A DNA stretch of 64,000 nt, taken from NCBI GenBank assembly GCA_002433075.1, contig DJHM01000042.1, forward strand, positions 2,804-66,803, given 5' to 3'. Shown one piece after another: positions 3,500 through 44,840 of the stretch (position 1 is its first letter; every line of letters begins with the position of its first letter). The DNA comes from Latescibacteria bacterium UBA6620 (GTDB lineage Bacteria > Latescibacterota > UBA2968). A model generated the notes under the pieces. That model did no database searches. It saw only the letters and a program-made list of their open reading frames with translations, and had not been told where the DNA came from. The translations under genes and the position numbers were made by a program.

Positions 3500-4921
3500 C
3501 TATATATGGATCGCTGCTTTGTCTACGGCCAGGGCCGCTTCCTTCATCGCCTCGGGGAGAGTCGGGTGTGCGTGCATCGTCCGTGCGATGTCTTCCGCGC
3601 TGCTCGAGAATTCCATCGCAAGAACGGCTTCTGACAGCATCTCCGACGCGCGCGCCCCAAGGATGTGCACACCTAGGACCCGATCGGTCCGGGCATCGGC
3701 GATCATCTTGACCATCCCCTCGGTGTCTTCGAGACTGTGGGCCCGGCCGTTCGCCATAAACGGAAACTTGCCAACCTTCACGTCGCCGACTTTCTCGCGA
3801 GCGAGCTCCTCCGTCAAGCCCACCGAGGCCAGCTCCGGATGTGTGTAGACAACCCCGGGCACGGTATCGTAGTTCACGTGGCCGGCCTTGCCCGCGATCA
3901 GCTCCACCGCCGCGATCCCCTCCTCCTCAGCCTTGTGCGCCAGCATCGGCCCGGTGATGACATCTCCGATGGCGTAGACGCCTTCGACCGAAGTCCGGTA
4001 CGCGTAGTCCACGACGATGCGCCCACGGTCATCGAACTCCACACCGGCTTCCGCGGCACCCAGCCCCTCGGCGTTCGCTCGTCGGCCGACGGCCACGAGC
4101 AATCGGTCGCATACCTCCGAGTGACGTTCTCCGCCTTTCTCAGACAGCGTCACATGTACCCGTCCATCTTTCACTTCGCCGGTGTCGGCCTTGCTTTCCA
4201 AACAGAATGAAATGCCCTGCTGCTCCAACGCCTTCTGCAGCTGAACGGCCATTTCTATATCCATCCCCGGTACGATCTGCGGCATCAGTTCCAGCACGGA
4301 TACCTCGGACCCCAATCGGTTCCAGACCGACCCTAATTCCAGACCAATCGCCCCGCCCCCGATCACGATCAGCTTCTCAGGCACCTCTTCGAACCCAAGC
4401 GCTTCGGTCGAAGACACGATGTGCTGCCCGTCGAAAGGCAGGTTCGGAAGCTCCACTGCGACAGACCCCGTCGCGAGGATGATGTGTTTTGCAGAGTACT
4501 GCCCCTCCCCCTTCCCGTTACTCACTTCGACGACACCGCCACCGGCAAGCCGTCCCAGCCCTTGCAGGTGTGTCACCTTGTTTTTCCGAAACAGCCCACG
4601 GATGCCACCGGTCATTCTCTTCACGATGCCGGACTTGCGTTTCATCATCGTCGCCAGATCCAGAGACACGTCTTTTGCCACAACGCCGTGACGATCCAGT
4701 GTCGATGCGGCCTGATGGTAGAGTTGACTCGATTCGAGCAACACTTTGCTCGGGATGCATCCGATGTTCAGACACGTCCCCCCCAACTGGGACATCTCAA
4801 CGCAGGCCGTGTTCATCGCGAGCTGAGCCGCCCGGATCGCGGCCACGTACCCGCCCGGGCCGGCGCCGATCACGATCACATCGTAGGTCTCGTCAGCCAA
4901 TGAAGTCCTCGGTGCGGCCAT
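3500..4921 (-). CDS. lpdA: Dihydrolipoyl dehydrogenase (E3 component).
   Basis: FAD-binding GAGPGGY motif and redox-active disulfide GGTCLNIGCIPSK, plus a C-terminal dimerisation domain. It lies downstream of sucAB. Confidence 0.92.
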   Translation of the reverse strand: MAAPRTSLADETYDVIVIGAGPGGYVAAIRAAQLAMNTACVEMSQLGGTCLNIGCIPSKVLLESSQLYHQAASTLDRHGVVAKDVSLDLATMMKRKSGIVKRMTGGIRGLFRKNKVTHLQGLGRLAGGGVVEVSNGKGEGQYSAKHIILATGSVAVELPNLPFDGQHIVSSTEALGFEEVPEKLIVIGGGAIGLELGSVWNRLGSEVSVLELMPQIVPGMDIEMAVQLQKALEQQGISFCLESKADTGEVKDGRVHVTLSEKGGERHSEVCDRLLVAVGRRANAEGLGAAEAGVEFDDRGRIVVDYAYRTSVEGVYAIGDVITGPMLAHKAEEEGIAAVELIAGKAGHVNYDTVPGVVYTHPELASVGLTEELAREKVGDVKVGKFPFMANGRAHSLEDTEGMVKMIADARTDRVLGVHILGARASEMLSEAVLAMEFSSSAEDIARTMHAHPTLPEAMKEAALAVDKAAIHI

Positions 4922-6177: not shown

Positions 6178-8949
6178 TTACGCTTCCTTTCCCGTTCTGT
6201 TGAGCGCATCGTCCACGAGGTCGGCCTGTTCTTTGAGGTGCCGCCCCATCAACCCGGTCGCCGGACTCGCCGACGGCTTCCGGCCGGCATAGCCGACGGG
6301 AAGTCGGTTCTCCAGCGCTTTCCGCAGTTTGGGTTCGGCGAAATCCCAGCTGCCCATATTCTGAGGTTCTTCCTGGGCCCAAACCACTTCCTCCGTCTTG
6401 CTGTAGCGCGCCAGGATTTCGGCCACCTCTTTCCACGGGAAGGGGTGCAGCTGCTCCACGCGGATGACGGCCACGTCCTTCACGTTCCTCTCGTTTTGCG
6501 CGGCGAGAAGGTCAAAGTAGACTTTCCCCGTGCAGAAGACCAGTCGCCGGATGTTCCCCGGTCGCTTGACCAGCGGGTCGTCGAGGATCGGATAGAATAC
6601 GTGATCGGTCAGGTCTTCGAGGGAGGAGGTCGAATCCTTGTGCCGCAAGAGGCTCTTCGGCATAAACAGAATGAGTGGCTTTCTGAAGTCGCGTCTGATC
6701 TGGCGTCGGAGAAGATGGAAATACTGACCCGGCAGCGTGGGGATAGCAACCTGCATATTGTCCTGGGAGCAGAGCGCCAGATATCTCTCGATACGCGCGC
6801 TCGAATGTTCGGGCCCCTGCCCCTCGAACCCATGAGGCAGGAGCATCACGAGTCCGCTCATCCGCTGCCATTTCTGCTCCGCGCAAGAAATAAACTGGTC
6901 GATCATCGGTTGGGCCATATTCGAGAAATCGCCGAACTGGGCCTCCCAGATCGACAGCCGACGCGGGTCAGCCAGACTGATCCCGTACTCGAAACCCACG
7001 ACCGCAAGCTCGCTCAACATCGAGTTCAACAGCGTAAACTCACCCTGATCTTCCGACAGGTGGGCGAGCGGCCAGTATTGCCGGCCGTTCTCGTGATCAT
7101 GCCAGACGCCGTGTCGGTGGCTAAAGGTGCCCCGTTGGCAGTCCTGCCCGGACAACCGCACCATCGTGCCCTCCAGTAACAGACTCCCGAAGGCCAGCAT
7201 TTCGGCGCAGCCCCAGTCCATCGGGGTGTCCCCAAAAACCATATCCCTCCGGGTCTTCACGAGCCGATCGAGCTTTCGGTAGATGTTGAACCCATCGGGC
7301 GTCGTCGTCGCCCGATCGGCGATCGTCTTCAACATCTCCGCTTCGACTCGCGTATCCGCCGTCCAGTCGTCCCCGGCTCGGCTCAACCCCTTCCAAGCGC
7401 CTCCGAACGAACTCATGCTTTCAGCCGGAACCTTTTCGTGCGCACGATCCAGCGCCTGGTCCAACTTCTGGCGCAATGCCTCGCGGATTTCCGTGACCCT
7501 TTCCTTCGTCAGCACGTTGTGTTCGACCAGGTCGGCTTCGTAGATCTTGTCGATCGTCGGGTGCTTGGCAATCGCCTTGTATCGCGTCGGCTGCGTGAAA
7601 ACTGGATCATCTCCCTCGTTGTGACCGTGACGGCGGTAACACCAGAGGTCGATGATCACGTCCGCCTTGAACGCCTGCCGATACCGCATCGCCATCATCG
7701 CCGTGTGAACCACGGCTTCGGGGTCATCGCCGTTCACGTGGAAAACCGGGGCCTGTACGATCTTGGCCACATCCGACGGGTAAGAGGTAAACCGGCTCTG
7801 TCGGGGTGTCGCCGTAAACCCGATCTGGTTGTTCACGATAATGTGAATGGTACCGCCGTTGTCGTAGCCGTTCAGCTGGGCCAGGCAGAGCGTCTCCGAA
7901 ATGATCCCCTGCCCCGTGAACGACGCATCTCCGTGAACCAGAACGGGAACAATCTGGCCCTTCTGGACGTCGCCTCGAATCTCCTGCTTGGCGAACACGA
8001 GCCCCTCGACGACCGGGTCGATCAATTCGAGGTGGGACGGATTCGGGCTCAGGGACATGTGTACGGTCTGACCGCTCTGCGTGACATAGTCATTCGAGTA
8101 GCCCATATGGTATTTCACGTCGCCCGAGCCATCGACGCCCTGATCCGGCACGGTCCCTTCAAACTCGCTGAAAAGCTGCTCGTAGGGCTTTTCCAGAACG
8201 TGGGCGAGCACGTTCAGTCGACCGCGGTGGGCCATACCGAGGACCATCTCATCGACTTCAAGTGCGGCCCCCGTTTCCGCAAGGGTCGTGAGGAGAGGCA
8301 CGAGCGTTTCTCCCCCTTCGAGGCTGAACCTCTTGTGGCCGATGAACTTCGTATGGAGGTAGTTTTCAAAGCCCTGGGCGGCAACCACCTGGCGGAAGAT
8401 CTGTTCTCGATCCTCGTTCGTAAACTTGGGTCGGTTGGAAGTCGGCTCCATCTGGCGCTGAAGCCACTCCTGCTGGCTCTTGTAGGGAATCTCCAGGTAC
8501 TCCACCCCGATCGACCGGCAATACGTCGCCTGGAGCTTATCGATCAGATCCCGTAACGTACCATCGGTGTTCCCCCCGAACCCGCAGGAACCGACCTGCG
8601 TGTCCAGGTCGGCTTCGGTGAGCCCGTACTCGCCGATGTCGAGCAGGGGGTGGGGCGGCCGGTCGTAAGAGACCGGGGCGAGGTGGGCAACGAGGTGCCC
8701 CATTCTCCGGTAGGCCGTGACGAGCGAGTCCGCACCCCGCAGGATGCGTCTGGCTGGACCCGCTTCATCTCCCTCTCCGTCCACGGAGAGGCCTGTAGAC
8801 CCATCGGCCCCATCGGCGAGTTCGAACCCCGCGAAAAAGGCTCGCCAATCCGTGCTGACGACCTCTGGATTCTGACGATACTTCGCCCACATCTCCTCGA
8901 CGTAAGCGACATTCTCGATGTGAGCGAAGTCAAATTCGGACATACGCAT
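6178..8949 (-). CDS. sucA: 2-oxoglutarate dehydrogenase E1 component.
   Basis: 923-aa ThDP-dependent E1 with an N-terminus typical of SucA (MSEFDFAHIENVAYVEEMWAKYRQNP). Confidence 0.93.
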   Translation of the reverse strand: MRMSEFDFAHIENVAYVEEMWAKYRQNPEVVSTDWRAFFAGFELADGADGSTGLSVDGEGDEAGPARRILRGADSLVTAYRRMGHLVAHLAPVSYDRPPHPLLDIGEYGLTEADLDTQVGSCGFGGNTDGTLRDLIDKLQATYCRSIGVEYLEIPYKSQQEWLQRQMEPTSNRPKFTNEDREQIFRQVVAAQGFENYLHTKFIGHKRFSLEGGETLVPLLTTLAETGAALEVDEMVLGMAHRGRLNVLAHVLEKPYEQLFSEFEGTVPDQGVDGSGDVKYHMGYSNDYVTQSGQTVHMSLSPNPSHLELIDPVVEGLVFAKQEIRGDVQKGQIVPVLVHGDASFTGQGIISETLCLAQLNGYDNGGTIHIIVNNQIGFTATPRQSRFTSYPSDVAKIVQAPVFHVNGDDPEAVVHTAMMAMRYRQAFKADVIIDLWCYRRHGHNEGDDPVFTQPTRYKAIAKHPTIDKIYEADLVEHNVLTKERVTEIREALRQKLDQALDRAHEKVPAESMSSFGGAWKGLSRAGDDWTADTRVEAEMLKTIADRATTTPDGFNIYRKLDRLVKTRRDMVFGDTPMDWGCAEMLAFGSLLLEGTMVRLSGQDCQRGTFSHRHGVWHDHENGRQYWPLAHLSEDQGEFTLLNSMLSELAVVGFEYGISLADPRRLSIWEAQFGDFSNMAQPMIDQFISCAEQKWQRMSGLVMLLPHGFEGQGPEHSSARIERYLALCSQDNMQVAIPTLPGQYFHLLRRQIRRDFRKPLILFMPKSLLRHKDSTSSLEDLTDHVFYPILDDPLVKRPGNIRRLVFCTGKVYFDLLAAQNERNVKDVAVIRVEQLHPFPWKEVAEILARYSKTEEVVWAQEEPQNMGSWDFAEPKLRKALENRLPVGYAGRKPSASPATGLMGRHLKEQADLVDDALNRTGKEA

Positions 8950-9170
8950 ATCTCCGGATCGAGATTCGACTGAAAGGCCGGCTAAGGTAGCAAGACGCTG
9001 ACGCTAATGTCAAGGTAAACAACAAAATATGACTGATTCAGAGCTCCGGGAAGGGCACCGATCTGCCGGTGGCGCGTAAGATCTTTTTCATTGACACCCT
9101 CTAATCTATAAGTTATCTTTTAAGTTCTAAGCAGGACAGGACCTTACACTCGTCTCGACACCTGAAAATC

Positions 9171-9338
9171 ATGAACGGTTATGCCAAAACAGCCGATTTG
9201 ACGGCCTCCCCGGCCCGACTTTCTTCGTCCCCACCTGCCGGTCGCTCGATCCTGCCCCGGGCGACCGCTGGCCGTTCGCTTATTCTACTCGTAGTCATCA
9301 TTGTTAAGAGCCTTCCTGCAGCTCTTCTTGCAGCTTAG
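9171..9338 (+). CDS. Candidate 55-aa leader peptide for the branched-chain amino-acid operon.
   Basis: The ATG at 9171 opens MNGYAKTADLTASPARLSSSPPAGRSILPRATAGRSLILLVVIIVKSLPAALLAA. Nine consecutive Leu/Ile/Val codons occur about 40 nt before the stop. No obvious Shine-Dalgarno sequence. Confidence 0.4.
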   Translation: MNGYAKTADLTASPARLSSSPPAGRSILPRATAGRSLILLVVIIVKSLPAALLAA

Positions 9339-9340
9339 CG

Positions 9341-9410
9341 GCTCAATTCCACTCACACCCACATTCGAGATTGTGAATTGAGCCTCTGAAGCGATTCAAA
9401 GGCTTTTTTT
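9341..9410 (+). promoter_or_regulatory. Putative transcription attenuator. It has an upstream hairpin that overlaps an intrinsic terminator.
   Basis: Perfect 9-bp inverted repeat gctcaattc(9341-9349)/gaattgagc(9375-9383). Its 3' arm overlaps a second hairpin gcctctgaagcgattcaaaggc, which is followed by T8 (9403-9410). This lies about 22 nt before the ilvH start. Confidence 0.45.
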
Positions 9411-9432
9411 TGTGCCCAACAGGACCTGAACG

Positions 9433-9930
9433 ATGCCGAAAAAACATACAATATGCGCACTTGTCGAGAATCACTTCGGTGTCCTCGGCCGGGTCGCCGG
9501 ACTCTTCTCCAGTCGTGGATACAATATCGACAGCCTCTCCGTCGGTGAGACCGAAGATCCCAAAATTTCCCGGATGACGATCGTGGTACGTGGAAACGAT
9601 CGCGTACTCGAGCAGGTCGTAAAGCAGTTGAACCGGCTAATCGACGTCATCCGTGTCATCGATATCACGCAGGGCGCCTTCATCGAACGTGAGTTGGCCC
9701 TCGTGAAGGTCAAGGCAACCCCGGCCACCCGATCCGAGATCATTCAGATCGCTGAGGTCTTTCGGGCCAACATCGTCGATGTCAGCACCTCTTCCATGAC
9801 GATCGAAGCCACCGGCAAAGAAGACAAAATCAACGCGATGACCACGATGCTCGCTCAATACGGCATCAACGAAATGGCCAGAACAGGCAACGTAGCCCTG
9901 CTGCGAGATTCGCAACCTGGACAGGCCTGA
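9433..9930 (+). CDS. ilvH: Acetolactate synthase small (regulatory) subunit.
   Basis: ACT-domain N-terminus MPKKHTICALVENHFGVLGRVAGLFSSRGYNIDSLSV. About 165 aa. No large subunit lies upstream. Confidence 0.9.
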   Translation: MPKKHTICALVENHFGVLGRVAGLFSSRGYNIDSLSVGETEDPKISRMTIVVRGNDRVLEQVVKQLNRLIDVIRVIDITQGAFIERELALVKVKATPATRSEIIQIAEVFRANIVDVSTSSMTIEATGKEDKINAMTTMLAQYGINEMARTGNVALLRDSQPGQA

Positions 9931-9954
9931 GGCCATTACAGGGAGGAACGCAGG

Positions 9955-10950
9955 ATGGAGATGTATTATGAAAAAGACGCCGATCTCGGGCTCCTGAGCG
10001 ACAAGACCGTGGCCGTCCTCGGCTTCGGGAGCCAAGGACACGCCCACGCGCTCAACCTGCACGACAGCGGTGTCAAGGTCGTCGTCGGCCTGCGCGAAGG
10101 CAGCGCGTCGCGTAAACACGCCTCCGACGAGGGTCTCGAAGTCGTCTCCCCCGCAGACGCGGCGGCCGCAGGCGATATCATCATGGTCCTCGTGCCCGAC
10201 GAGCATCAGCGAACCGTTTTTCAGACCGACATCAAGCCGGGCCTCAAGGCAGGCAATGCCCTTGCATTCGCCCACGGGTTCAACATCCACTACGGTCAGG
10301 TCGTGCCTCCCCCCGACGTCGACGTTTTCATGATCGCCCCCAAGGGCCCGGGACACCTGGTTCGTCGCGTATTCTCCCAGGGCGGAGGTGTCCCCTGCCT
10401 GATCGCCGTCGAGCAGGATGCGACCGGCAAGGCCAAGGAAATCGGGCTCGCCTACGGGAAGGGCATCGGAGGCGCACGCGCGGGGATTATCGAGACCACG
10501 TTCCGCGAAGAGACCGAGACCGACCTGTTCGGAGAACAATCCGTTCTATGCGGCGGCCTGACCGAGCTGATTCGAGCAGGATTCGACACACTCGTCGAAG
10601 CCGGCTACCAACCCGAAATCGCCTACTTCGAGTGCTTGCACGAGGTCAAACTCATCGTAGACCTCATCTACGAGGGCGGCATCGCAAACATGCGGTCTTC
10701 CATCTCAGACACGGCCGAATACGGCGACCTGACCCGAGGACAGCGCATCATCACCGATGAGACCCGCACGGAAATGAAGCGCATTCTGAACGACATCCAA
10801 TCCGGCCAGTTCCCACGGGAGTGGCTCGTTGAGAACCAAGTTGGGCGCCCGCTCTACAACGCCCGCAAGCGCCAGGACCAGGAGCACCTGATCGAGGAAG
10901 TCGGTACGAAACTGAGGGGCATGATGTCCTGGCTGGAACAGGACGGCTAA
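9955..10950 (+). CDS. ilvC: Ketol-acid reductoisomerase.
   Basis: N-terminus [31 protein letters not shown] (NADPH Rossmann fold). Class I length, about 330 aa. Confidence 0.93.
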
Positions 10951-11130
10951 CAGTCCATTAAGACCCGACACAGGCGACGCACTTGAAGGAGGTGAGGCAG
11001 ATGGAATCCGACCTTTCAGACCTTACGGGCACACAGAACAGATTCAACCTCGTACGGCGGGTTGATCGATGTGTGGCAAGGTTCCACCTGCCTGCCCCAT
11101 TCAGCTCCCGAAATCAGGAGTAGCAGACCC

Positions 11131-12681
11131 ATGGATCAGAACACCAAAGACCAGGTCGTCATTTTCGACACCACGTTGAGGGACGCCGAACAAACGCCCG
11201 GATGCTCGCTGACGACGCGTGAAAAACTCGAAATTGCCCATCAGCTGGCGCGTCTGAACGTCGACGTCATTGAGGCCGGTTTCCCCGTTTCGTCGAACGA
11301 AGACTTCGAGGCGGTTAAACGCATCGCGAACGAGGTCGAAGGCCCCCGGATCTGCGGTCTGGCCCGCGCGGTCAGGCTCGACATCGAACGTGCCGGAGAA
11401 GCTCTGGCCGGCGCCCCGAAGACGCGGCTGCATACGTTCATCGGCAGTTCGCCCCAGCATCGTGCCATGATGAGAAAATCGCCTGAGGAAGTCCTCAAAA
11501 TGGCCGTCGATGCCGTCGAGCTTGCCCGGGCTCAATGCGAGAACGTCGAGTTCTCCCCGATGGATGCGGTCCGTACCGAGCCGGATTATCTGTACGAGAT
11601 GGTTGAAGCCACCATCGCCACCGGCGCTACGACGATCAACATTCCGGACACCGTCGGATACGCCGTCCCGGACCAGTTCGGACAGCTCATCGCGGATATC
11701 ATCTCCCACGTGGGGAACGTCGATGACGCGATCATCAGCGTGCACTGTCACGACGACTTGGGGATGGCCGTCTCCAATTCCCTGACCGCCCTGAAGCGCG
11801 GAGCCCGTCAGGCGGAGTGCACGATCAACGGTCTGGGCGAACGCGCGGGCAATGCGTCGCTCGAAGAGATCGTGATGGCCGTCCTCACCCGGGGCGACTA
11901 TTTCGGCATCGCCTGTGATGTCAACCCAAAAGAGATCATCAACACGAGCCGCCTCGTTTCCCGGCTGATGAACGTCAGCGTCCCCCCCAACAAAGCCATC
12001 GTCGGGGCGAACGCGTTCGCGCACAGTTCGGGCATCCACCAGGACGGCGTCCTCAAAAGCCGCGACAACTTCGAAATTATGGCTCCCCAGGATGTCGGTC
12101 TGGAGCAGACACAGATCGTCCTGACGGCGCGTTCGGGTCGCCACGCCCTGCGCCATCGCCTGGAGGAACTGGGCTACGAGCTCTCTCCCGAAGACATCGA
12201 AAAAGCCTACGAGCGGTTCATCGTCGTCGCCGACAAGAAGAAGGAAGTGTTCGACGAGGATCTCATCGCCATCGTCAGCGACGAGCTTACCGACATCCCG
12301 GAAAAATATCACCTCGAGTATATGCACACCGTCAGCGGCACCGGAATGGTCCCCTCCGCCACCATCCGGCTCACCATCGACGGAAACAGCGAGGTGCAGG
12401 AATCCGCCTGGGGTGACGGCCCTGTCGACGCCGCGTACAAGGCGGTCAAGACTGCTGCGGGCACGGAGGCTCGGGTCGAGCAATACGCCATCCAGGCCAT
12501 CACGAGCGGGGCCGAGGCCCTCGGTGAGGTCACAGTGCGACTGAGCGAAGGAGGACGCGCGGCAACCGGCCGGGCCGTGTCGACCGACGTCATCGAGGCG
12601 AGCGTCAAAGCCTACATAGACGGCCTCAACCGGCTGGAGATTCAAGCCGGTATTCAACGCCAGCGCGCCGAGGCCGTGTAG
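11131..12681 (+). CDS. leuA: 2-isopropylmalate synthase.
   Basis: [12 protein letters not shown] and HxH motifs with a C-terminal LeuA regulatory domain. The start is reassigned to the ATG at 11131, which is preceded by caggag. The 537-aa ORF on the opposite strand is rejected. Confidence 0.88.
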
Positions 12682-12691
12682 GGGAACGTCG

Positions 12692-14092
12692 ATGGGAAAA
12701 CCACTGTTCAACAAAGTCTGGGATGCGCACGCAGTCCGTAGGTTGCCTTCGGGAAAAACACAGCTGTTCGTTGGACTCCACCTGGTTCACGAAGTCACCA
12801 GTCCTCAGGCCTTCGACATGATGCGCGAGAGCGGTCTCGAAGTCGCCTACCCGGACCGCACCTTCGCAACCGTCGACCACATCGTGCCCACAGATGTTCG
12901 GACACGCCCGTTCGCCGACGAAATGGCTGAGCAAATGATGGTCGCGATCGAGAAAAACGCTGATGAGTTCGAGATCCCTCTGTTCGACATGAACGACGAC
13001 CGTCAAGGCATCGTTCACGTCATCGGTCCCGAGTTGGGACTGAGCCAGCCCGGAATGACGATCGCCTGCGGGGACAGCCATACGTCAACCCACGGGGCCT
13101 TCGGAGCCATCGCCTTCGGCATCGGCACTTCACAGGTAAGGGATGTGCTTGCCACACAATGCCTTGCGATGGATCCCCTGAAGGTTCGCCTCATAAAGGT
13201 CGACGGGGACCTCGCCGACGGCGTCTACGCCAAAGACGTCGTACTCAACGTCATCCGCCAGTTGGGCGTCAAGGGCGGCGTGGGGTATGCCTACGAGTTC
13301 GGGGGCGACACCCTGGCTCGGATGTCGATGGAAGGCAGAATGTCGATCTGCAATATGTCGATCGAAGGCGGGGCGCGAGCCGGATACGTCAACCCCGACC
13401 AGACGACCTTCGACTATCTGGAGGGACGCCCTCACAGTCCAGCCGGAGATGCATTCGAACGAGCGGTCGACTGGTGGACGTCTATCGCATCTGACGAGGA
13501 TGCCGACTACGACGACGTCTACGATCTCGACGCCGCATCGATAGAACCGACCGTCACCTGGGGCATTACCCCCGGACAGGCCATTGGCGTAAGTGAAAAG
13601 GTCCCCGCCCTTACCGACCTGCAGGACGACGATCGGGATGTCGCGTGCGAAGCCTACGATTACATGGATTTCCAGCCCGGCCATCCCATCGCGGGAACCA
13701 GAATTGACGTCGCCTTCATCGGGTCGTGCACGAACAGCCGGATCTCCGACCTTCGTGAAGCGGCCCGAGTCGCCAAGGGCCGCAAGGTCGCCAGCCACGT
13801 CAAGCCGCTTGTCGTTCCCGGTTCAAAGAACGTGCTCGAAGCGGCCGAGGCAGAGGGCCTGCACGAAATTTTCATTGAGGCCGGGTTCGAATGGCGAAGC
13901 GCCGGATGTTCGATGTGTCTTGCCATGAACCCCGACAAACTTCAAGGCCGTCAGATTTCGGCCTCGTCCAGCAATCGAAATTTCAAGGGTCGTCAGGGAA
14001 GCCCAACGGGGCGCACGCTCCTGATGAGCCCCGCAATGGTCGCGGCCGCCGCGATCGCGGGTGAGATCACCGACGTTCGGCAAATGCTGTAA
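12692..14092 (+). CDS. leuC: 3-isopropylmalate dehydratase large subunit.
   Basis: Aconitase-family protein with an N-terminus typical of LeuC ([11 protein letters not shown]...[13 protein letters not shown]) and a Cys cluster (GSCTNS). Confidence 0.92.
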
Positions 14093-14106
14093 ACACCGAG
14101 GAAAAC

Positions 14107-14709
14107 ATGCCTGCTTCTTCCATCAGCCAGGTCGCAGGTCCCGGAATCGCTCTCCGCGGGAGCGACATCGACACGGATCGCATTATCCCGGCGCGTTTCC
14201 TGCGAATGATTACGTTCGACGGACTTGGCGATCACGCCTTTGAAGACGACAGAAAGTCCAACCCAGAACACCCATTCAACGACGGCCGGTTTCGAGACGC
14301 TGCAGTGCTCGTAGCGAACGGCAACTTCGGGTGCGGATCATCCCGCGAACACGCGCCCCAAGCTCTTCAGCGTTGGGGAATCCAGGCGATCGTGGGCGAG
14401 TCGTTCGCGGAGATCTTCCAGGGCAATTGCACGGTAATGGGCATCCCCTGCGTAACCGCATCTTCCGCAGATGTGGCGAAACTCCAGGATGCCGTCGAAG
14501 CCGACCCCTCGCAGCCTCTGGATGTGGACCTAGCGAAGAAGACCGTCACCTGCGGGAACCTGGTCACGCAAGTCGACCTGCCGGAGGGAAACCGCGTGTC
14601 CCTGCTCGAAGGAGCGTGGGATGCGACAGGTATGCTTCTGGAGGGCGCCGACGCTGTCAGGGAGGTGGCGAACAGCCTCCCCTACGCACGCGGATTCGAG
14701 CGGGACTGA
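14107..14709 (+). CDS. leuD: 3-isopropylmalate dehydratase small subunit.
   Basis: About 200-aa aconitase swivel domain with the GDNIDTDRIIPARFL-like motif. Confidence 0.9.
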   Translation: MPASSISQVAGPGIALRGSDIDTDRIIPARFLRMITFDGLGDHAFEDDRKSNPEHPFNDGRFRDAAVLVANGNFGCGSSREHAPQALQRWGIQAIVGESFAEIFQGNCTVMGIPCVTASSADVAKLQDAVEADPSQPLDVDLAKKTVTCGNLVTQVDLPEGNRVSLLEGAWDATGMLLEGADAVREVANSLPYARGFERD

Positions 14710-14798
14710 AACCAGCGATTCATGTGGGACGGAATCCCGCGAATCTTGCGGACTGAATCATCACGAAATCTGTACTAACAGCTTGATCGGAGGAATAC

Positions 14799-15860
14799 GT
14801 GGCGCATCAGATCGGAGTCATTCCCGGGGACGGAACCGGGCCTGAGGTGACCGTCGAAGCCCTCAAGTGCCTGGAGGCGGCTTCGGCGAAGTTCGGGTTC
14901 AAGTACGAGACGACAGAATTCGACTTTGGGGGCGATCGCTACAAACGTACGGGCGAAACCTTGCCCGACGAGGCGCTCGACGACCTCCGTGGGTTCAGGG
15001 CCATTCTGCTCGGAGCCATCGGCCACCCGGACGTCAAGCCAGGCATCCTAGAAAAAGGCATCCTCCTCAAGGCCCGCTTTGCTCTCGATCAGTACATCAA
15101 CCTTCGACCGGTCAAGCTCTACCCCAACGTCGATTGCCCCCTCAAGGACAAGACTCCGGACGATATCGACTTTGTCGTCGTCCGCGAGAATACGGAAGGT
15201 CTTTACGCGGGTGCGGGCGGCTATCTGAAACAGGGAACGCCCGACGAAATCGCCGTCCAGGAATCGATCAACACCCGCAAGGGCGTCGAACGGTGCCTGC
15301 GCTATGCGTTTGAATTGACCCGCAAGCGCGACAAGGAAAAGACCCTCACGCTTTGCGGAAAAACCAATGTCCTCACCTTCGCGTTCGATATGTGGGAACG
15401 GGCCTTCCACGAAATTGGCGACGCCGAATTCCCGGACATCAAGCGGGATTACGCGCACGTCGACGCGACGGTGATGTGGATGGTCAAGAATCCCGAGTGG
15501 TTCGACGTCATTGTGACCGATAATATGTTTGGCGACATCATCACCGACCTGGGGGCGATGGTTCAGGGCGGCATGGGGGTCGCGGCAGGCGGCAACATTA
15601 ACCCCGAAGGCGTATCGATGTTCGAACCCATCGGAGGTTCCGCGCCCAAGTACACGGGCCAGAACGTCATCAACCCCATCGCCTGCATTTCCGCCTGCCA
15701 GATGATGCTTGATACGCTGGGCGAGGCTGAAGCCGCCGCAGCTGTCGAGAAAGCCATTATCGATGTGGTCGGCACCAAGCTGAAAAGCATGTCCGCAGGA
15801 AGAATGGGGTACAGCACGACAGAAGTTGGAGATCTCGTCGCGGAAGCCATCGCATCATAG
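14799..15860 (+). CDS. leuB: 3-isopropylmalate dehydrogenase.
   Basis: Isocitrate/isopropylmalate dehydrogenase family with a GDGTGPEV N-terminus, sited inside the leu operon. GTG start preceded by ggagga. Confidence 0.85.
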
Positions 15861-15915: not shown

Positions 15916-16266
15916 ATGGCCGAAGTGACTGTCTACCACAACGAGCGCTGAAGCAAATCACGCGGCGCGCTGGACATCCTGCGCGAGCGAGGCGTCGAGT
16001 TCGACGTCATCGAATACATCGAGAACCCCGTCGCTGAATCCGACCTGCGCAGGTTTCTCGATTTGCTGTCCGTGGAACCCAAGGAAATGCTGCATTCGGG
16101 CGCTTTCAATGACCTGGGCCGAAACATCGAGGACTACAACACCCCCGACGCACTCGTCGGACTTCTCCTCGAACATCCCGAGGTCATGAACCGCCCCATC
16201 TGTGTGCGCGGCGACTGGGCCGTCATCGCCCGCCCGGCGGAAAGGGTGAACGAAATCCTGGACTGA
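15916..16266 (+). CDS. ArsC/Spx-family thiol reductase with an in-frame TGA at the catalytic-Cys codon. Candidate selenoprotein (Sec12).
   Basis: MAEVTVYHNER-TGA-SKSRGALDILRERGVEFDVIEYIENP... aligns with E. coli ArsC MSNITIYHNPACGTSRNTLEMI. The TGA at 15949-15951 replaces Cys12, and the frame is conserved for a further 104 codons up to the stop at 16266. A GC-rich hairpin begins about 16 nt after the TGA. Confidence 0.6.
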
Positions 16267-22947: not shown

Positions 22948-22976
22948 TTGACGCTCCCTGATCACCCGCTTATATT
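22948..22976 (+). promoter_or_regulatory. Near-consensus sigma70-type promoter (TTGACG, 17-nt spacer, TATATT).
   Basis: -35 ttgacg at 22948-22953, an exactly 17-nt spacer, and -10 tatatt at 22971-22976. It sits inside an AT-rich non-coding island. Confidence 0.5.
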
Positions 22977-22982
22977 CCTACG

Positions 22983-23042
22983 CAACTCGAAGATAGGAAG
23001 TGGCGTATCTCCTTAATATACAAGGAGATAATACGATTTTTT
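22983..23042 (+). ncRNA. Candidate small RNA of about 60 nt, running from a predicted start site to an intrinsic terminator.
   Basis: It lies downstream of the consensus promoter. The hairpin cgtat-ctcctt/aaggag-(at)-atacg (23004-23035) is immediately followed by attttttg. No conserved ORF is present. Confidence 0.3.
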
Positions 23043-43385: not shown

Positions 43386-44840
43386 CTAATGGCTCATTTC
43401 CCGATCCACCACCGCGTCAAGACCTCCTATAGGCATGGACCCGATGTAGTGGCCATTCACGAAGAACGTTGGAGTCGATCCCACACCCAGCGAGTCTCCC
43501 TCGTCGATATCCGCCTGAACGATCCTTCCTCCGTCGCCTGACTTGACACAAGCATCGACCGCCAACGCATCCAGCCCTAGCGCTTCGACGTGATTCCAAA
43601 TCGCACGCTTACTCAGATCGTTCTGATTCGCGAATAGCCGGTCTACGACTTTCCAGAATCCATTCTGTTGCTGTGCGCACGCAGCAACTTCCGCGGCATA
43701 CCTCGCGTGTGGATGCATATTCAGCGGGTAGTGCCTGAAGATGACACGGACGTCCTTCGGCCGCCGCTTAACCAGGTCGTCAATAGCGTGATGTGCCCGT
43801 GCGCAATAGCCGCATTCAAGGTCGGAGAACTCTACAATTGTAACGGGTGCATCAGACGAGCCCTTCTCCGGTCCCCCACGTGGATTCGGGTCGATAACGA
43901 AGCGTTCGGACGCAGGAGGACGATAATCCGTCCCGAATCGCTTCTTCAGGCTCGCCACAAAGACATCCAGCGCTGGTTTACTCTTCCGTCGCCCAATTTC
44001 GCTCCGAATGCGCGACTCGACGTCTTCCCTCGTGGTCCCCGGTTTCAGTCGCCCTTTGATTTGCTCCCATCGATGAGTCACTTCTCCAGCTGTCACGTCG
44101 ATCTTTGAGTACACCTCCTGCTGCACCAGACTCCGGATCGACATCCCCCTATTCTTCGCCTCTGCTCCTAACACCTGCCTGTCCAACCACTCCGACCGAT
44201 ACTGGTCTTTCGTTTCTTGAAGCTTCATTCGAATGCCCGCATCAACTTCCGAACGCGTGATCTCCCGGTCCCCAATCCTGGCAACAACCTCTCGTCCCTG
44301 CGATCTGGAACCCACGATCAGCCCACCAATACCTGCTTCAACAACCGAATAGATCCCGATGGGTAATGCAATCGCCAGCATAACGGGAGCTACAACAAGA
44401 TGAAGTGGCGGCCCGAATACGGATTGCCCGGGATCTCTTCGATCCGCCGCCCGCCACGCAACGATAAGCAGGGCAAGCATCAGCATCGCCGACCCGAGGC
44501 AGAAAGGGCACCAGGCCTCGATCACAAAAGCTTGAAGATAAAGAAGGAACAGACTTGGCAGGTTGCCCACCACGGCAAGGAGGGAAACGATCCGAATGGC
44601 GTCCCCACGTTCGTCCTCCCGCAGCCCACGCCACGCGGTCATCCAGATGGCGAGGTACAGACCCAGGCCGTAAACCGAAAGCGGGATCCCGAGTAATTTG
44701 GAATAGGGGCTCGCCAGAATTTCCCCACACCCGGATCCGTCCCCGCACGCGGCCGACCCGAATAAATGCGAGTAGGTTAGATACGCGGAATCAAGTACCC
44801 CGAAGGTGGCAAGAAAAATCAGAATGAGCGTGGTAGTCAT
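43386..44840 (-). CDS. VKOR (vitamin K epoxide reductase) membrane domain fused to a DsbA-like thioredoxin-fold domain.
   Basis: The N-terminal 130 aa carry the VKOR loop Cys pair (CGDGSGC) and the TM CXXC (CPFC). The C-terminal domain carries CXXC (ECGYCARAH) in a DsbA-like fold. A SurA-N-like linker of about 150 aa lies between them. Confidence 0.7.
   Translation of the reverse strand: MTTTLILIFLATFGVLDSAYLTYSHLFGSAACGDGSGCGEILASPYSKLLGIPLSVYGLGLYLAIWMTAWRGLREDERGDAIRIVSLLAVVGNLPSLFLLYLQAFVIEAWCPFCLGSAMLMLALLIVAWRAADRRDPGQSVFGPPLHLVVAPVMLAIALPIGIYSVVEAGIGGLIVGSRSQGREVVARIGDREITRSEVDAGIRMKLQETKDQYRSEWLDRQVLGAEAKNRGMSIRSLVQQEVYSKIDVTAGEVTHRWEQIKGRLKPGTTREDVESRIRSEIGRRKSKPALDVFVASLKKRFGTDYRPPASERFVIDPNPRGGPEKGSSDAPVTIVEFSDLECGYCARAHHAIDDLVKRRPKDVRVIFRHYPLNMHPHARYAAEVAACAQQQNGFWKVVDRLFANQNDLSKRAIWNHVEALGLDALAVDACVKSGDGGRIVQADIDEGDSLGVGSTPTFFVNGHYIGSMPIGGLDAVVDREMSH

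What the first reader, a model, noticed from the sequence alone, without database searches (positions are those of the whole stretch)
9171..9410. Candidate leader-peptide transcription attenuator upstream of ilvH
A 55-codon ORF (9171-9338) ends with LILLVVIIV, nine consecutive branched-chain residues, followed by KSLPAALLAA.
- Its stop codon is followed immediately by a perfect 9-bp inverted repeat (9341-9383).
- The 3' arm of that repeat overlaps the 5' arm of a second hairpin, which ends in a run of eight T residues (9403-9410), 22 nt before ilvH.
This is the classic arrangement of ribosome-mediated attenuation (regulatory codons, alternative hairpins, intrinsic terminator) and would place ilvH-ilvC-leuABCD(-cimA) under joint Ile/Leu/Val control. 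The peptide is longer than typical enterobacterial leaders and has no clear Shine-Dalgarno sequence.
Basis: seen in the sequence. Interest (0 to 1): 0.65.

Follow-up and report, generated by a model that had tools for sequence, protein, structure and literature searches.

The report
Leader-peptide attenuator before ilvH-leu operon
The stretch in front of the branched-chain amino-acid genes of this uncultured marine bacterium looks like a textbook sensor, in which a ribosome reading a short Leu/Ile/Val-rich message decides whether transcription stops or continues; the mechanism is ordinary, but this version is undescribed, unusually long and conserved across its phylum.

Summary
The ORF at 9171-9338 encodes 55 aa containing LILLVVIIV. 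Its stop codon lies 1 nt before a perfect 10-bp inverted repeat (9340-9349/9375-9384). The 3' arm of that repeat overlaps a terminator hairpin (9380-9405) followed by T8 (9404-9411), 21 nt before ilvH.

The ILV run and the T8 run are each unique in the 64-kb window. All 25 related Latescibacterota loci, plus 3 metagenome contigs, carry the same layout:
- a sigma-70-type promoter (recognisable in 24 of 26);
- a 36-71-codon ORF with an ILV-rich tail;
- four mutually complementary segments, with the stop codon at most 12 nt before segment 2.

The terminator hairpin covaries. The antiterminator is conserved but barely covaries. Folding with a ribosome footprint imposed gives the terminator only when the ribosome sits on the last codons or the stop codon.

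The best reading is ribosome-mediated transcription attenuation of ilvH-ilvC-leuACDB. It matches no Rfam family, and gene callers did not call the ORF. It is a new member of a known kind.

Unusual points:
- the leader peptide is long;
- the predicted default without translation is read-through;
- most relatives lack a clean U-tract;
- similar long leader ORFs occur in Ignavibacteria/Bacteroidetes-labelled MAGs.

There are no transcript data.

The parts
9091..9119 (+). Sigma-70-type promoter: -35 TTGACA 9091-9096, 17-nt spacer, -10 TATCTT 9114-9119. The inferred transcription start is near 9126-9128.
   Evidence: 10 of 12 matches. The same TTGACA-17/18-TAnnnT lies 45-60 nt upstream of the leader ATG in 24 of 26 related loci.
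9171..9338 (+). Leader ORF, 55 codons plus TAG. The N-terminal 36 codons act as a poorly conserved spacer. The C-terminal 19 codons carry the regulatory codons.
   Evidence: The start M-N-G-Y is shared with L013/L014 and resembles the M(N/T/I)PY of 13 further loci. Population variants show L>R, S>C, S>A and A>T in the N-part, and V>I in the ILV run. The ORF was not called as a gene on any of 10 contigs, and the peptide is absent from the protein collection.
9279..9305 (+). Regulatory codons CTT ATT CTA CTC GTA GTC ATC ATT GTT (L I L L V V I I V). Further Leu codons lie at 9312-9314 and 9324-9329.
   Evidence: the only ILV run of 8 or more in six frames of 64 kb; six of the nine are minor codons (CTT 12%, ATT 19%, CTA 2%, GTA 8%, GTT 12% of their families in 14 genes of the window). 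The common CTG and GTG are not used.
9306..9314 (+). Segment 1: AAGAGCCTT, core GAGCC at 9308-9312. It can pair with segment 2 (GGCTC 9340-9344) and has the same sequence as segment 3.
   Evidence: duplex -10.0 kcal/mol. The motif (A)GCCU(C/U)(U/C) inside the ORF tail is nearly invariant across 26 loci. The 1:2 duplex is -8 to -16 kcal/mol in all of them.
9336..9338 (+). Leader stop codon TAG, 1 nt before segment 2.
   Evidence: The distance from the stop to the GGCUC core is -1 to 12 nt in all 26 loci. Where it is 10-12 nt, the helix begins with AGAG 4 nt before the core.
9340..9349 (+). Segment 2: 5' arm of the antiterminator (GGCTCAATTC).
9375..9384 (+). Segment 3: 3' arm of the antiterminator (GAATTGAGCC). 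Its last 5 nt are also the first 5 nt of the terminator stem.
   Evidence: The 2:3 helix is paired in 88.7% of cells across 26 sequences, but its GGCUC/GAGCC core never varies.
9380..9405 (+). Terminator hairpin (segments 3:4): GAGCCTCTGAA, loop GCGA, TTCAAAGGCTT.
   Evidence: -11.3 kcal/mol. Across relatives it is 87.5% paired. Four pairs have changes on both sides (18 cells), and 0 of 500 shuffles reach the observed covariation score.
9404..9411 (+). Run of eight T: the U-tract of the intrinsic terminator.
   Evidence: the only T/A run of 8 or more in the window. It is T8 or T9 in all 11 population variants.
9421..9424 (+). Shine-Dalgarno AGGA of ilvH, 8 nt before the ATG.
   Evidence: An AGGA/GAGG motif sits at the same place in all relatives.
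9433..15860 (+). Regulated genes: ilvH 9433-9930, ilvC 9955-10950, leuA 11131-12681, leuC 12692-14092, leuD 14107-14709, leuB 14799-15860.
   Evidence: NCBIfam equivalog hits above the curated cut-offs. Co-transcription is inferred from orientation and short gaps.

Best explanation
This is a ribosome-mediated (leader-peptide) transcription attenuator controlling ilvH-ilvC-leuACDB.

Transcription starts about 44 nt upstream of a 55-codon leader ORF. The outcome depends on where the ribosome sits when RNA polymerase transcribes 9375-9411.
- Charged Leu/Ile/Val-tRNAs plentiful: the ribosome runs to the last codons or the stop codon (9330-9338). Its footprint covers segment 2 (9340-9349). Segment 3 is then free to pair with segment 4, and the hairpin plus U8 terminates transcription 21 nt before ilvH.
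- Any of these tRNAs scarce: the ribosome stalls on the nine consecutive, mostly rare, Leu/Ile/Val codons (9279-9305) or on the later Leu codons. Segment 2 stays exposed and forms the more stable 10-bp antiterminator with segment 3. The terminator cannot form, and the operon is transcribed.

Shown here: the sequence elements, their exclusivity, their energetics, and their conservation and position in relatives. Inferred: that the ORF is translated, that termination occurs at the T-run, and that termination responds to BCAA supply.
For: 1. Anatomy. The elements run in order: promoter, ORF, ILV run, stop codon 1 nt before the antiterminator arm, overlapping terminator, U8, ilvH SD.

2. Non-chance. 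The ILV run and the T8 are each unique in the window. The antiterminator has z = -6.1.

3. Ribosome-footprint folding of 9127-9411.
- A site on any codon up to 9327: P(antiterminator) = 0.99 and P(terminator) <= 0.03.
- A site on 9333 or the stop codon: P(terminator) = 0.98 and P(antiterminator) <= 0.02.

4. Comparative support. All 25 Latescibacterota-type loci (IlvH 77-85% identical) and 3 metagenome contigs have a 36-71-codon ORF ending -1 to 12 nt before the conserved (AGA)GGCUC arm.
- The last 20 codons hold 10.3 ILV codons on average in the ORF frame, against 2.8 and 1.9 in the other frames, and 16% ILV in the N-part.
- In 12 close relatives the ORF is exactly 52 codons, and one has an in-frame 3-codon deletion.
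- N-part codon differences are mostly non-synonymous (781 against 371). Differences in the ILV tail are mostly synonymous (166 against 116), and substitutions seen within the run, such as I/V, stay within ILV.

5. Four-segment logic is present in every locus: 1:2 at -8 to -16, 2:3 at -14 to -22, and 3:4 at -5 to -11 kcal/mol.

6. Structure conservation. The 3:4 hairpin covaries. The covariance model finds exactly one copy per locus, always upstream of ilvH, and none in 55 loci of other phyla at E < 0.01.

7. Promoter. It is conserved upstream of the ORF in 24 of 26 loci.

8. Codons. Rare codons are enriched in the run.

9. Precedent. BCAA-rich uORFs with terminator and antiterminator regulate ilv/leu genes in E. 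coli, Corynebacterium and S. aureus (PMC10272879, PMC5794164, PMC1262725). PMC1262725 also notes that motifs taking part in several pairings within attenuators stay conserved over long distances. That would account for the invariant GGCUC/GAGCC core.
Against: - There are no transcript or ribosome data. The organism is known only from metagenome assemblies.
- The leader start in this window has no Shine-Dalgarno sequence.
- At 55 codons the ORF is about twice the length of classical leaders, and the regulatory codons begin only at codon 37.
- The antiterminator core shows almost no covariation: 1 double change, and 464 of 500 shuffles do as well on that measure. Its support is conservation, not compensation.
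- The 1:2 pairing in this window is only 5 bp and is not populated at equilibrium. The classical 'no translation gives termination' state is therefore not predicted.
- Only the window, L030, L015, L035 and L093 have a clear U-run after the 3:4 hairpin. Most relatives have an offset or weak U-rich tail, or none. Intrinsic termination may not be the output everywhere.
- In Streptomyces coelicolor, mutating the candidate regulatory codons of a similar-looking ilvB leader had no effect on regulation (cited in PMC1262725).
Confidence: 0.85

Rival explanations
1. The same uORF and alternative helices act through an output other than intrinsic termination. Candidates are control of ilvH translation, Rho-dependent termination, or RNA processing. 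On this reading the T8 in this window is a lineage-specific addition.
For: Most relatives lack a U-run directly after the 3:4 hairpin. In some group-B loci the ilvH SD becomes less accessible when segment 2 is masked: L019 goes from 0.64 to 0.21, L021 from 0.85 to 0.44, and L022 from 0.93 to 0.45.
Against: In the window the hairpin is followed immediately by U8, which is kept as T8/T9 in all 11 population variants. SD accessibility does not change in the window (0.51 against 0.58) or in most relatives. L013/L014 can extend the stem so that UUUUGU/UUUUAU follows it directly.
Confidence: 0.07
2. The conserved RNA is a riboswitch-like, protein-binding or tRNA-binding element, for example a T-box-like or ppGpp-type regulator of ilv genes. 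On this reading the ORF is incidental.
For: The GGCUC/GAGCC core and the CUGAAGCGAUUCAAAGG hairpin are conserved in sequence beyond what pairing alone needs.
Against: No Rfam family matches, even at E <= 10. The start codon, the frame, the frame-specific ILV enrichment and the position of the stop relative to segment 2 are all conserved. A translation-independent element would not require any of these. The sequence conservation is explained by each segment having two pairing partners.
Confidence: 0.04
3. The ORF encodes a genuine small hydrophobic (membrane) peptide with its own terminator, and ilvH is expressed independently.
For: The C-terminal 20 residues are hydrophobic enough for a membrane helix. 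The motif ILxLPxLLSLLLSxIL recurs in relatives. An analogous ORF in Ignavibacteriaceae is annotated as a hypothetical protein.
Against: Only 21 nt separate the T-run from the ilvH ATG, which leaves no room for a promoter. The N-terminal two-thirds evolve mostly by non-synonymous change, and length varies from 36 to 71 codons. Part of the conserved peptide motif (S-L-L = AGC CUC UUx) coincides with RNA segment 1. The ORF is always tied to the switchable helices and to ilvH.
Confidence: 0.03

Closest known systems
Enterobacterial ilvGMEDA, ilvBN and leu operon leaders (ilvL, ivbL, leuL): classical ribosome-mediated attenuation
   Same: All have a promoter-proximal ORF with a cluster of Leu/Ile/Val codons, four segments forming 1:2, 2:3 (antiterminator) and 3:4 (terminator plus U-tract), a stop codon placed so that a terminating ribosome masks segment 2, and minor codons among the regulatory codons. 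This comparison rests on my own knowledge of the E. coli systems. The general mechanism is described in PMC1183508 and PMC10272879.
   Different: There is no sequence or Rfam-model similarity. The leader is 55 codons (36-71 in relatives) against about 28-32. At equilibrium, untranslated RNA is predicted to read through rather than to super-attenuate. The first regulated gene is the AHAS small subunit alone. No ilvB is adjacent, and none was found among the window ORFs tested.
ilvB-II motif / ilvBNC leader of Corynebacterium (Narunsky et al. 2023, PMC10272879; PMC11857589)
   Same: Both are conserved uORFs enriched in BCAA codons that overlap a stem, followed by a terminator stem with a U-tract. 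Both occur once per genome, always upstream of the AHAS genes. In both, the evidence is a start codon kept in frame with a stop and lengths divisible by three.
   Different: The Corynebacterium uORF is 15-17 aa. The sequences are unrelated, the phylum is different, and the gene downstream there is ilvB.
Staphylococcus aureus ilvD leucine-rich attenuator peptide (Kaiser et al. 2018, PMC5794164)
   Same: Both have a Leu/Ile-rich leader peptide upstream of an ilv-leu operon, with a conserved terminator and an alternative antiterminator. The Leu-dominated codon content matches that of most Latescibacterota relatives.
   Different: The S. aureus peptide is 26 aa, and its terminator lies 52 nt after the stop. 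Its antiterminator sequesters the poly-U tail rather than the 5' arm of the terminator. It is also supported by suppressor mutations and reporter data, which are lacking here.
ilvB-OMG and ilvB RNA motifs (candidate uORF attenuators from several phyla, discussed in PMC10272879)
   Same: These are also conserved RNA motifs upstream of AHAS genes that carry BCAA-rich uORFs of variable length.
   Different: Rfam release 15 gives no match at gathering score for the window or for seven related loci, nor at E <= 10 for 8900-9500. This element is therefore not a member of any curated Rfam family.

Membership tests
Ribosome-mediated (leader-peptide) transcription attenuator | Short ORF with a start codon inside the 5' leader, downstream of the promoter and upstream of the first structural gene | tested here: met
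   The ORF is 9171-9338 and the promoter 9091-9119. ORF and promoter are conserved in relatives. At 55 codons it is long for the class.
Ribosome-mediated (leader-peptide) transcription attenuator | Cluster of codons for the amino acids made by the regulated operon | tested here: met
   Nine consecutive L/I/V codons plus 3 further Leu codons. The run is unique in the window. The enrichment is frame-specific in 26 loci.
Ribosome-mediated (leader-peptide) transcription attenuator | Intrinsic terminator (G+C-rich hairpin followed by a U-tract) between the leader ORF and the first gene | tested here: met
   Hairpin 9380-9405 at -11.3 kcal/mol, then U8. The hairpin covaries. In most relatives the U-tract is weak or offset.
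Ribosome-mediated (leader-peptide) transcription attenuator | Antiterminator that is mutually exclusive with the terminator | tested here: met
   The 10-bp helix 9340-9349/9375-9384 shares 9380-9384 with the terminator stem. It folds at -17.6 against -11.3 kcal/mol and is present in all 26 loci.
Ribosome-mediated (leader-peptide) transcription attenuator | Geometry in which a ribosome at the stop codon masks the antiterminator 5' arm and a ribosome stalled on the regulatory codons leaves it free | tested here: met
   The stop is 1 nt before segment 2, and -1 to 12 nt in all relatives. The footprint simulation switches at A site 9330-9336.
Ribosome-mediated (leader-peptide) transcription attenuator | Segment 1:2 pairing that favours termination when the leader is not translated | tested here: inconclusive
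   A complementary segment 1 exists in every locus. In the window it is 5 bp and is not populated at equilibrium. Co-transcriptional kinetics could not be modelled.
Ribosome-mediated (leader-peptide) transcription attenuator | Premature termination that is relieved by starvation for the cognate amino acids and depends on leader translation | not testable with these tools
   This needs transcript mapping or reporter assays.
Curated Rfam leader, riboswitch and T-box families (Leu_leader, ilvB-OMG, T-box, ppGpp/ykkC and others) | Covariance-model score at or above the family's gathering threshold | tested here: not met
   No match at gathering score in the window or in 7 related loci. At E <= 10 on 8900-9500 there were only three unrelated weak hits.

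The most novel reading that the evidence does not exclude
The element belongs to an undescribed, possibly ancient family of long-leader attenuators (leader ORFs of 36-70 codons with an ILV-rich hydrophobic tail). The family would be shared by FCB-group phyla (Latescibacterota, and Ignavibacteria/Bacteroidetes-labelled MAGs) and would differ from the enterobacterial paradigm in two ways. First, termination would strictly need a ribosome parked at the leader stop, so that untranslated RNA reads through. Second, in most members the output would not be a canonical hairpin-plus-U-tract terminator.
Probability: 0.2. Interest if true: 0.55.

Novelty: new member of a known kind. Interest (0 to 1): 0.4.

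Why it matters
- It provides a well-supported cis-regulatory element for a candidate phylum with no cultured representatives. No literature on attenuators in this phylum was found in the papers searched.
- It shows that textbook translation-coupled attenuation very probably operates there, and so that transcription and translation are coupled.
- The element is unannotated. It matches no Rfam family, and the ORF is not called as a gene. With 29 sequences and a working covariance model it could be curated as a family.
- In marine metatranscriptomes, the ratio of reads upstream and downstream of 9411 would report in situ whether these bacteria are short of branched-chain amino acids.
- The long leader and the variable output region make it a useful natural series for asking which parts of an attenuator are essential.

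Tried and rejected
- Rfam. The whole window at gathering score, 8900-9500 at E <= 10, and seven related loci at gathering score gave nothing relevant.
- Consensus terminator scan. It missed the 9380-9411 terminator, presumably because of the C/A mismatch in the stem. I established the terminator by folding instead.
- Ungapped MAFFT alignment of the full leader. It misaligned segment 2 of L011/L012/L017. I replaced it with motif-anchored segments.
- SD sequestration as the conserved output. Forcing the antiterminator, or masking segment 2, produced no consistent change in accessibility of the ilvH SD. Rejected as a general mechanism, but kept as a minor rival.
- A second copy of the element upstream of other BCAA genes. 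The covariance model found a single site in the window and one per related locus.
- Metagenome scan for the terminator core. It gave only 4 contigs, all upstream of ilvH, and no new operon context.
- The upstream hairpin 9238-9271 inside the ORF as a conserved pause hairpin. It is broken by mismatches in population variants L003/L009/L010.
- The 9-mer ACAGGACCT shared by the 5' UTR and the ilvH RBS. It is not conserved in relatives.
- An arrest-peptide reading, with a conserved C-terminal residue pattern at the stop. Rejected because the last residues differ widely among loci.

Full report
WHAT IS THERE

The window carries sucB and sucA on the minus strand, ending at 8949. A 483-nt intergenic region follows, and then on the plus strand come ilvH (9433-9930), ilvC, leuA, leuC, leuD and leuB. 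All six are identified by NCBIfam equivalog models above their cut-offs.

In the intergenic region the promoter scan finds one sigma-70-type site, TTGACA-17-TATCTT at 9091-9119. The ORF 9171-9338 encodes 55 residues ending ...SLILLVVIIVKSLPAALLAA. One nucleotide after its TAG begins a perfect 10-bp inverted repeat, 9340-9349 with 9375-9384. It folds at -17.6 kcal/mol, z = -6.1.

The last five bases of the 3' arm of that repeat are also the first five of a second hairpin, 9380-9405, at -11.3 kcal/mol with a GCGA loop. The second hairpin runs into T8 at 9404-9411, which lies 21 nt before the ilvH ATG. Everything else is as described.

IS IT MORE THAN CHANCE?

The run of nine Leu/Ile/Val codons is the only run of eight or more in any of the six frames of the 64-kb window. 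Shuffled sequence gives 0.005 runs of nine. The T8 is the only T- or A-run of eight or more. Two features that are each unique in the window lie 100 nt apart, in the right order, directly in front of a branched-chain amino-acid operon.

Six of the nine codons are minor ones in this genome (CTA 2%, GTA 8%, CTT 12%, GTT 12%, ATT 19% twice). The common CTG and GTG are absent.

ORIGIN

The exact IlvH protein occurs on TARA Oceans and other marine metagenome contigs and in two MAG assemblies. The nearest relatives in a species-level genome collection, at 77-85% IlvH identity, are almost all labelled Candidatus Latescibacterota; a few are labelled Gemmatimonadota. Latescibacterota is a phylum of the FCB group. 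Assigning the window to that phylum is an inference from these neighbours.

COMPARATIVE EVIDENCE

Ten contigs of the same population are 99% identical over the leader. The few differences are telling.
- There are four amino-acid replacements in the N-terminal part of the ORF.
- There is a V>I change inside the ILV run.
- Nothing changes in the hairpins.
- The T-run is T8 or T9.

All 25 related genomes carry the same arrangement upstream of ilvH.
- Promoter: TTGACA-17/18-TAnnnT lies 45-60 nt before the ORF start in 24 of 26 loci.
- ORF: it has an ATG start and 36-71 codons. The start is often M-(N/T/I)-x-Y. In thirteen loci GGAG or GGGAG lies 8-9 nt upstream.
- Tail: the C-terminal block is rich in Leu/Ile/Val, with motifs such as ILPLLLSLLLSILL and ILVLPASSSLLLSAIL.
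- Stop: the stop codon lies -1 to 12 nt before a conserved (AGA)GGCUC arm.

The last 20 codons hold on average 10.3 ILV codons in the ORF frame, against 2.8 and 1.9 in the other two frames. The N-terminal part is only 16% ILV.

Among twelve close relatives the ORF is exactly 52 codons, and a thirteenth has an in-frame loss of three codons.
- In the N-terminal 33 codons, variable sites are spread over all three codon positions (17/20/26), and non-synonymous codon differences outnumber synonymous ones (781 against 371).
- In the tail, variation is concentrated at positions 1 and 3 (6/2/8), and synonymous differences predominate (166 against 116). Replacements seen in the run, such as I/V, stay within Leu/Ile/Val.

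This is the pattern expected if translation of the frame and the identity of the tail codons matter, while the peptide as such does not.

RNA ARCHITECTURE

Every locus has four segments built from one short motif and its complement.
- Segment 1, (G)AGCCU(C/U)(U/C), lies inside the ILV tail. It accounts for the recurrent Ser-Leu-Leu.
- Segment 2 is (AGA)GGCUC.
- Segment 3 is GAGCCUCU.
- Segment 4 is AGG(C/U).

Duplex energies are -8 to -16 kcal/mol for 1:2, -14 to -22 for 2:3, and -5 to -11 for the 3:4 hairpin.

On an anchored alignment of 26 sequences the 3:4 hairpin is paired in 87.5% of cells. Four pairs have changes on both sides, for example G-C to C-G in 11 sequences and G-C to A-U in 5. 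None of 500 shuffles reaches the observed covariation score.

The 2:3 helix is paired in 88.7% of cells, but its five core pairs never vary and only one double change is seen. It is supported by conservation rather than by compensation. The likely reason is that each core segment has two pairing partners, so a change would need three or four simultaneous compensations. The same effect has been noted for attenuators in Proteobacteria and Actinobacteria (PMC1262725).

A covariance model built from this alignment finds exactly one site in the window (9336-9414, 53 bits, E about 1e-10) and one per related locus, always upstream of ilvH. It finds nothing below E = 0.01 in 55 loci from other phyla. 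A metagenome scan for the terminator core added three further contigs with the same layout.

MECHANISM

I folded the inferred leader transcript 9127-9411 while masking a 28-nt ribosome footprint at successive A-site positions.
- With the A site anywhere up to codon 9327, which includes all nine ILV codons and the three later Leu codons, the antiterminator has probability 0.99 and the terminator at most 0.03.
- With the A site on 9333 or on the stop codon, the terminator has probability 0.98 and the antiterminator at most 0.02.

This is the behaviour of a classical attenuator. A ribosome that reaches the end of the leader in time hides segment 2, and the terminator forms. A ribosome starved of charged Leu-, Ile- or Val-tRNA stalls upstream, and the operon is read through.

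One difference from the E. coli trp paradigm is that untranslated RNA is also predicted to adopt the antiterminator (P = 0.99). In this window 1:2 is only 5 bp. Termination should therefore require active translation of the leader. This is an equilibrium calculation, and co-transcriptional folding could differ.

WHAT REMAINS OPEN

- No transcript data exist.
- The leader start in this window lacks a Shine-Dalgarno sequence. The region is A-rich, and relatives do have one.
- The ORF is long for a leader.
- Only the window, L030, L015, L035 and L093 have a clear U-run after the 3:4 hairpin. Others have an offset CGUUUUGU-type tail or none.
- I tested whether those relatives might instead sequester the ilvH ribosome-binding site and found no consistent effect. 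Their output is unresolved.
- A similar-looking ilvB leader in Streptomyces coelicolor did not behave as a classical attenuator when its codons were mutated (cited in PMC1262725). Sequence-based assignment therefore carries some risk.

COMPARISON WITH WHAT IS KNOWN

Leader-peptide attenuation of ilv and leu genes is textbook in enterobacteria. It is documented or predicted in Corynebacterium, Mycobacterium, Streptomyces, Staphylococcus, Lactococcus and others (PMC10272879, PMC11857589, PMC5794164, PMC1262725). Several ilvB-associated RNA motifs are now read as uORF attenuators (PMC10272879).

The present element works like these and meets every sequence-testable defining feature. It matches no curated Rfam family. 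Its ORF was not called on any of 10 contigs, and the peptide is absent from a 15-billion-protein collection. A full-text search found nothing on attenuators in Latescibacterota. I therefore class it as a new member of a known kind.

Its distinctive traits are the following.
- The leader is 36-71 codons, against 15-32 in the known examples.
- The first regulated gene is ilvH alone. No ilvB is adjacent, and none was found among the window ORFs tested.
- The default without translation is predicted to be read-through.
- Ignavibacteria/Bacteroidetes-labelled MAGs have analogous 50-60-codon ILV-tailed ORFs upstream of their ilv genes, with weak covariance-model similarity (E 0.05-1). This hints at a wider FCB-group family, but I did not establish homology.

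VERDICT

This is an ordinary mechanism in a new lineage, with good comparative evidence. Interest is 0.4.

Noticed in passing
window 10975-11130 (gap between ilvC and leuA); also L011-L017, L024, L028: There is a second conserved element here. A strong SD (AAGGAGGTGA) and an ATG open a 35-45-codon uORF (MESDL(G/S)DL...) that ends 0-10 nt before the leuA start; in L011 the stop and start overlap as TGATG. The uORF start region GCAGATGGAATCC is complementary to GGTTCCA(T/C)CTGCC about 75 nt downstream. The element is absent from the relatives whose operon lacks ilvC, except L028. It has no Rfam match. It may be a separate leuA-specific control.
   Followed up: partly
window 15916-16266 (+): An ArsC-family ORF between leuB and cimA has an in-frame TGA at 15949-15951, exactly where the family has its catalytic Cys (VYHNER-TGA-SKSR). 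With Cys substituted it matches TIGR00014 arsC at E = 1.3e-26. It is a candidate selenocysteine codon.
   Followed up: partly
L061 1653-1811, L062, L063, L064, L067, L070, L076, L080, L081, L083, L084, L086, L087, L090: MAGs labelled Ignavibacteria or Bacteroidetes carry a 50-60-codon ORF (for example MNNTKKNI...SLDIILGISIIISVLGIIILG) downstream of a TTGACA promoter (seen in the six loci read) and upstream of a 560-590-aa ORF of the ilv cluster. Where inspected it is followed by a GTCAATCCC...GGGATTGAC hairpin. These look like analogous long BCAA leader peptides. One of them is annotated as 'hypothetical protein'.
   Followed up: partly
L018-L023, L025-L027, L029, L031-L033 (upstream of ilvH, about 3700-4000): In this subgroup the operon is ilvH-leuA-leuCD without ilvC, the leader tail is Leu-dominated, and no U-tract follows the 3:4 hairpin. 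Instead a GGGCA...TGCCC hairpin and the sequence TGTCATAT follow. How the switch is read out there is unknown.
   Followed up: partly
window 1-64000: ilvH, the regulatory subunit of acetolactate synthase, heads the operon without the catalytic subunit gene. No ilvB/ilvI was found among the large ORFs of the window that were tested.
   Followed up: partly
window 9135-9143 and 9419-9427: The 9-mer ACAGGACCT, which contains the ilvH Shine-Dalgarno sequence, also occurs in the 5' UTR of the leader, 28 nt before the leader ATG. It is not conserved in relatives, so it is probably chance.
   Followed up: yes
window 9238-9271: A G+C-rich hairpin lies inside the leader ORF (CCGGTCGCTCG...CGGGCGACCG). 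It gave a spurious weak miRNA hit in Rfam (E = 0.32). Mismatches break it in population variants L003/L009/L010, so it is not a conserved pause hairpin.
   Followed up: yes
window 43386-44840 (-): This ORF matches the Rcas_1661 family of thioredoxin-like (seleno)lipoproteins over its C-terminal part (E = 3e-24, below the curated cut-off). It is a second hint that this organism uses selenocysteine.
   Followed up: no
window 23006-23042 (+): A 9-bp hairpin (TATCTCCTT...AAGGAGATA) is followed after 6 nt by T6. The site lies downstream of a promoter-like site at 22948-22976. It may be another leader or terminator.
   Followed up: no
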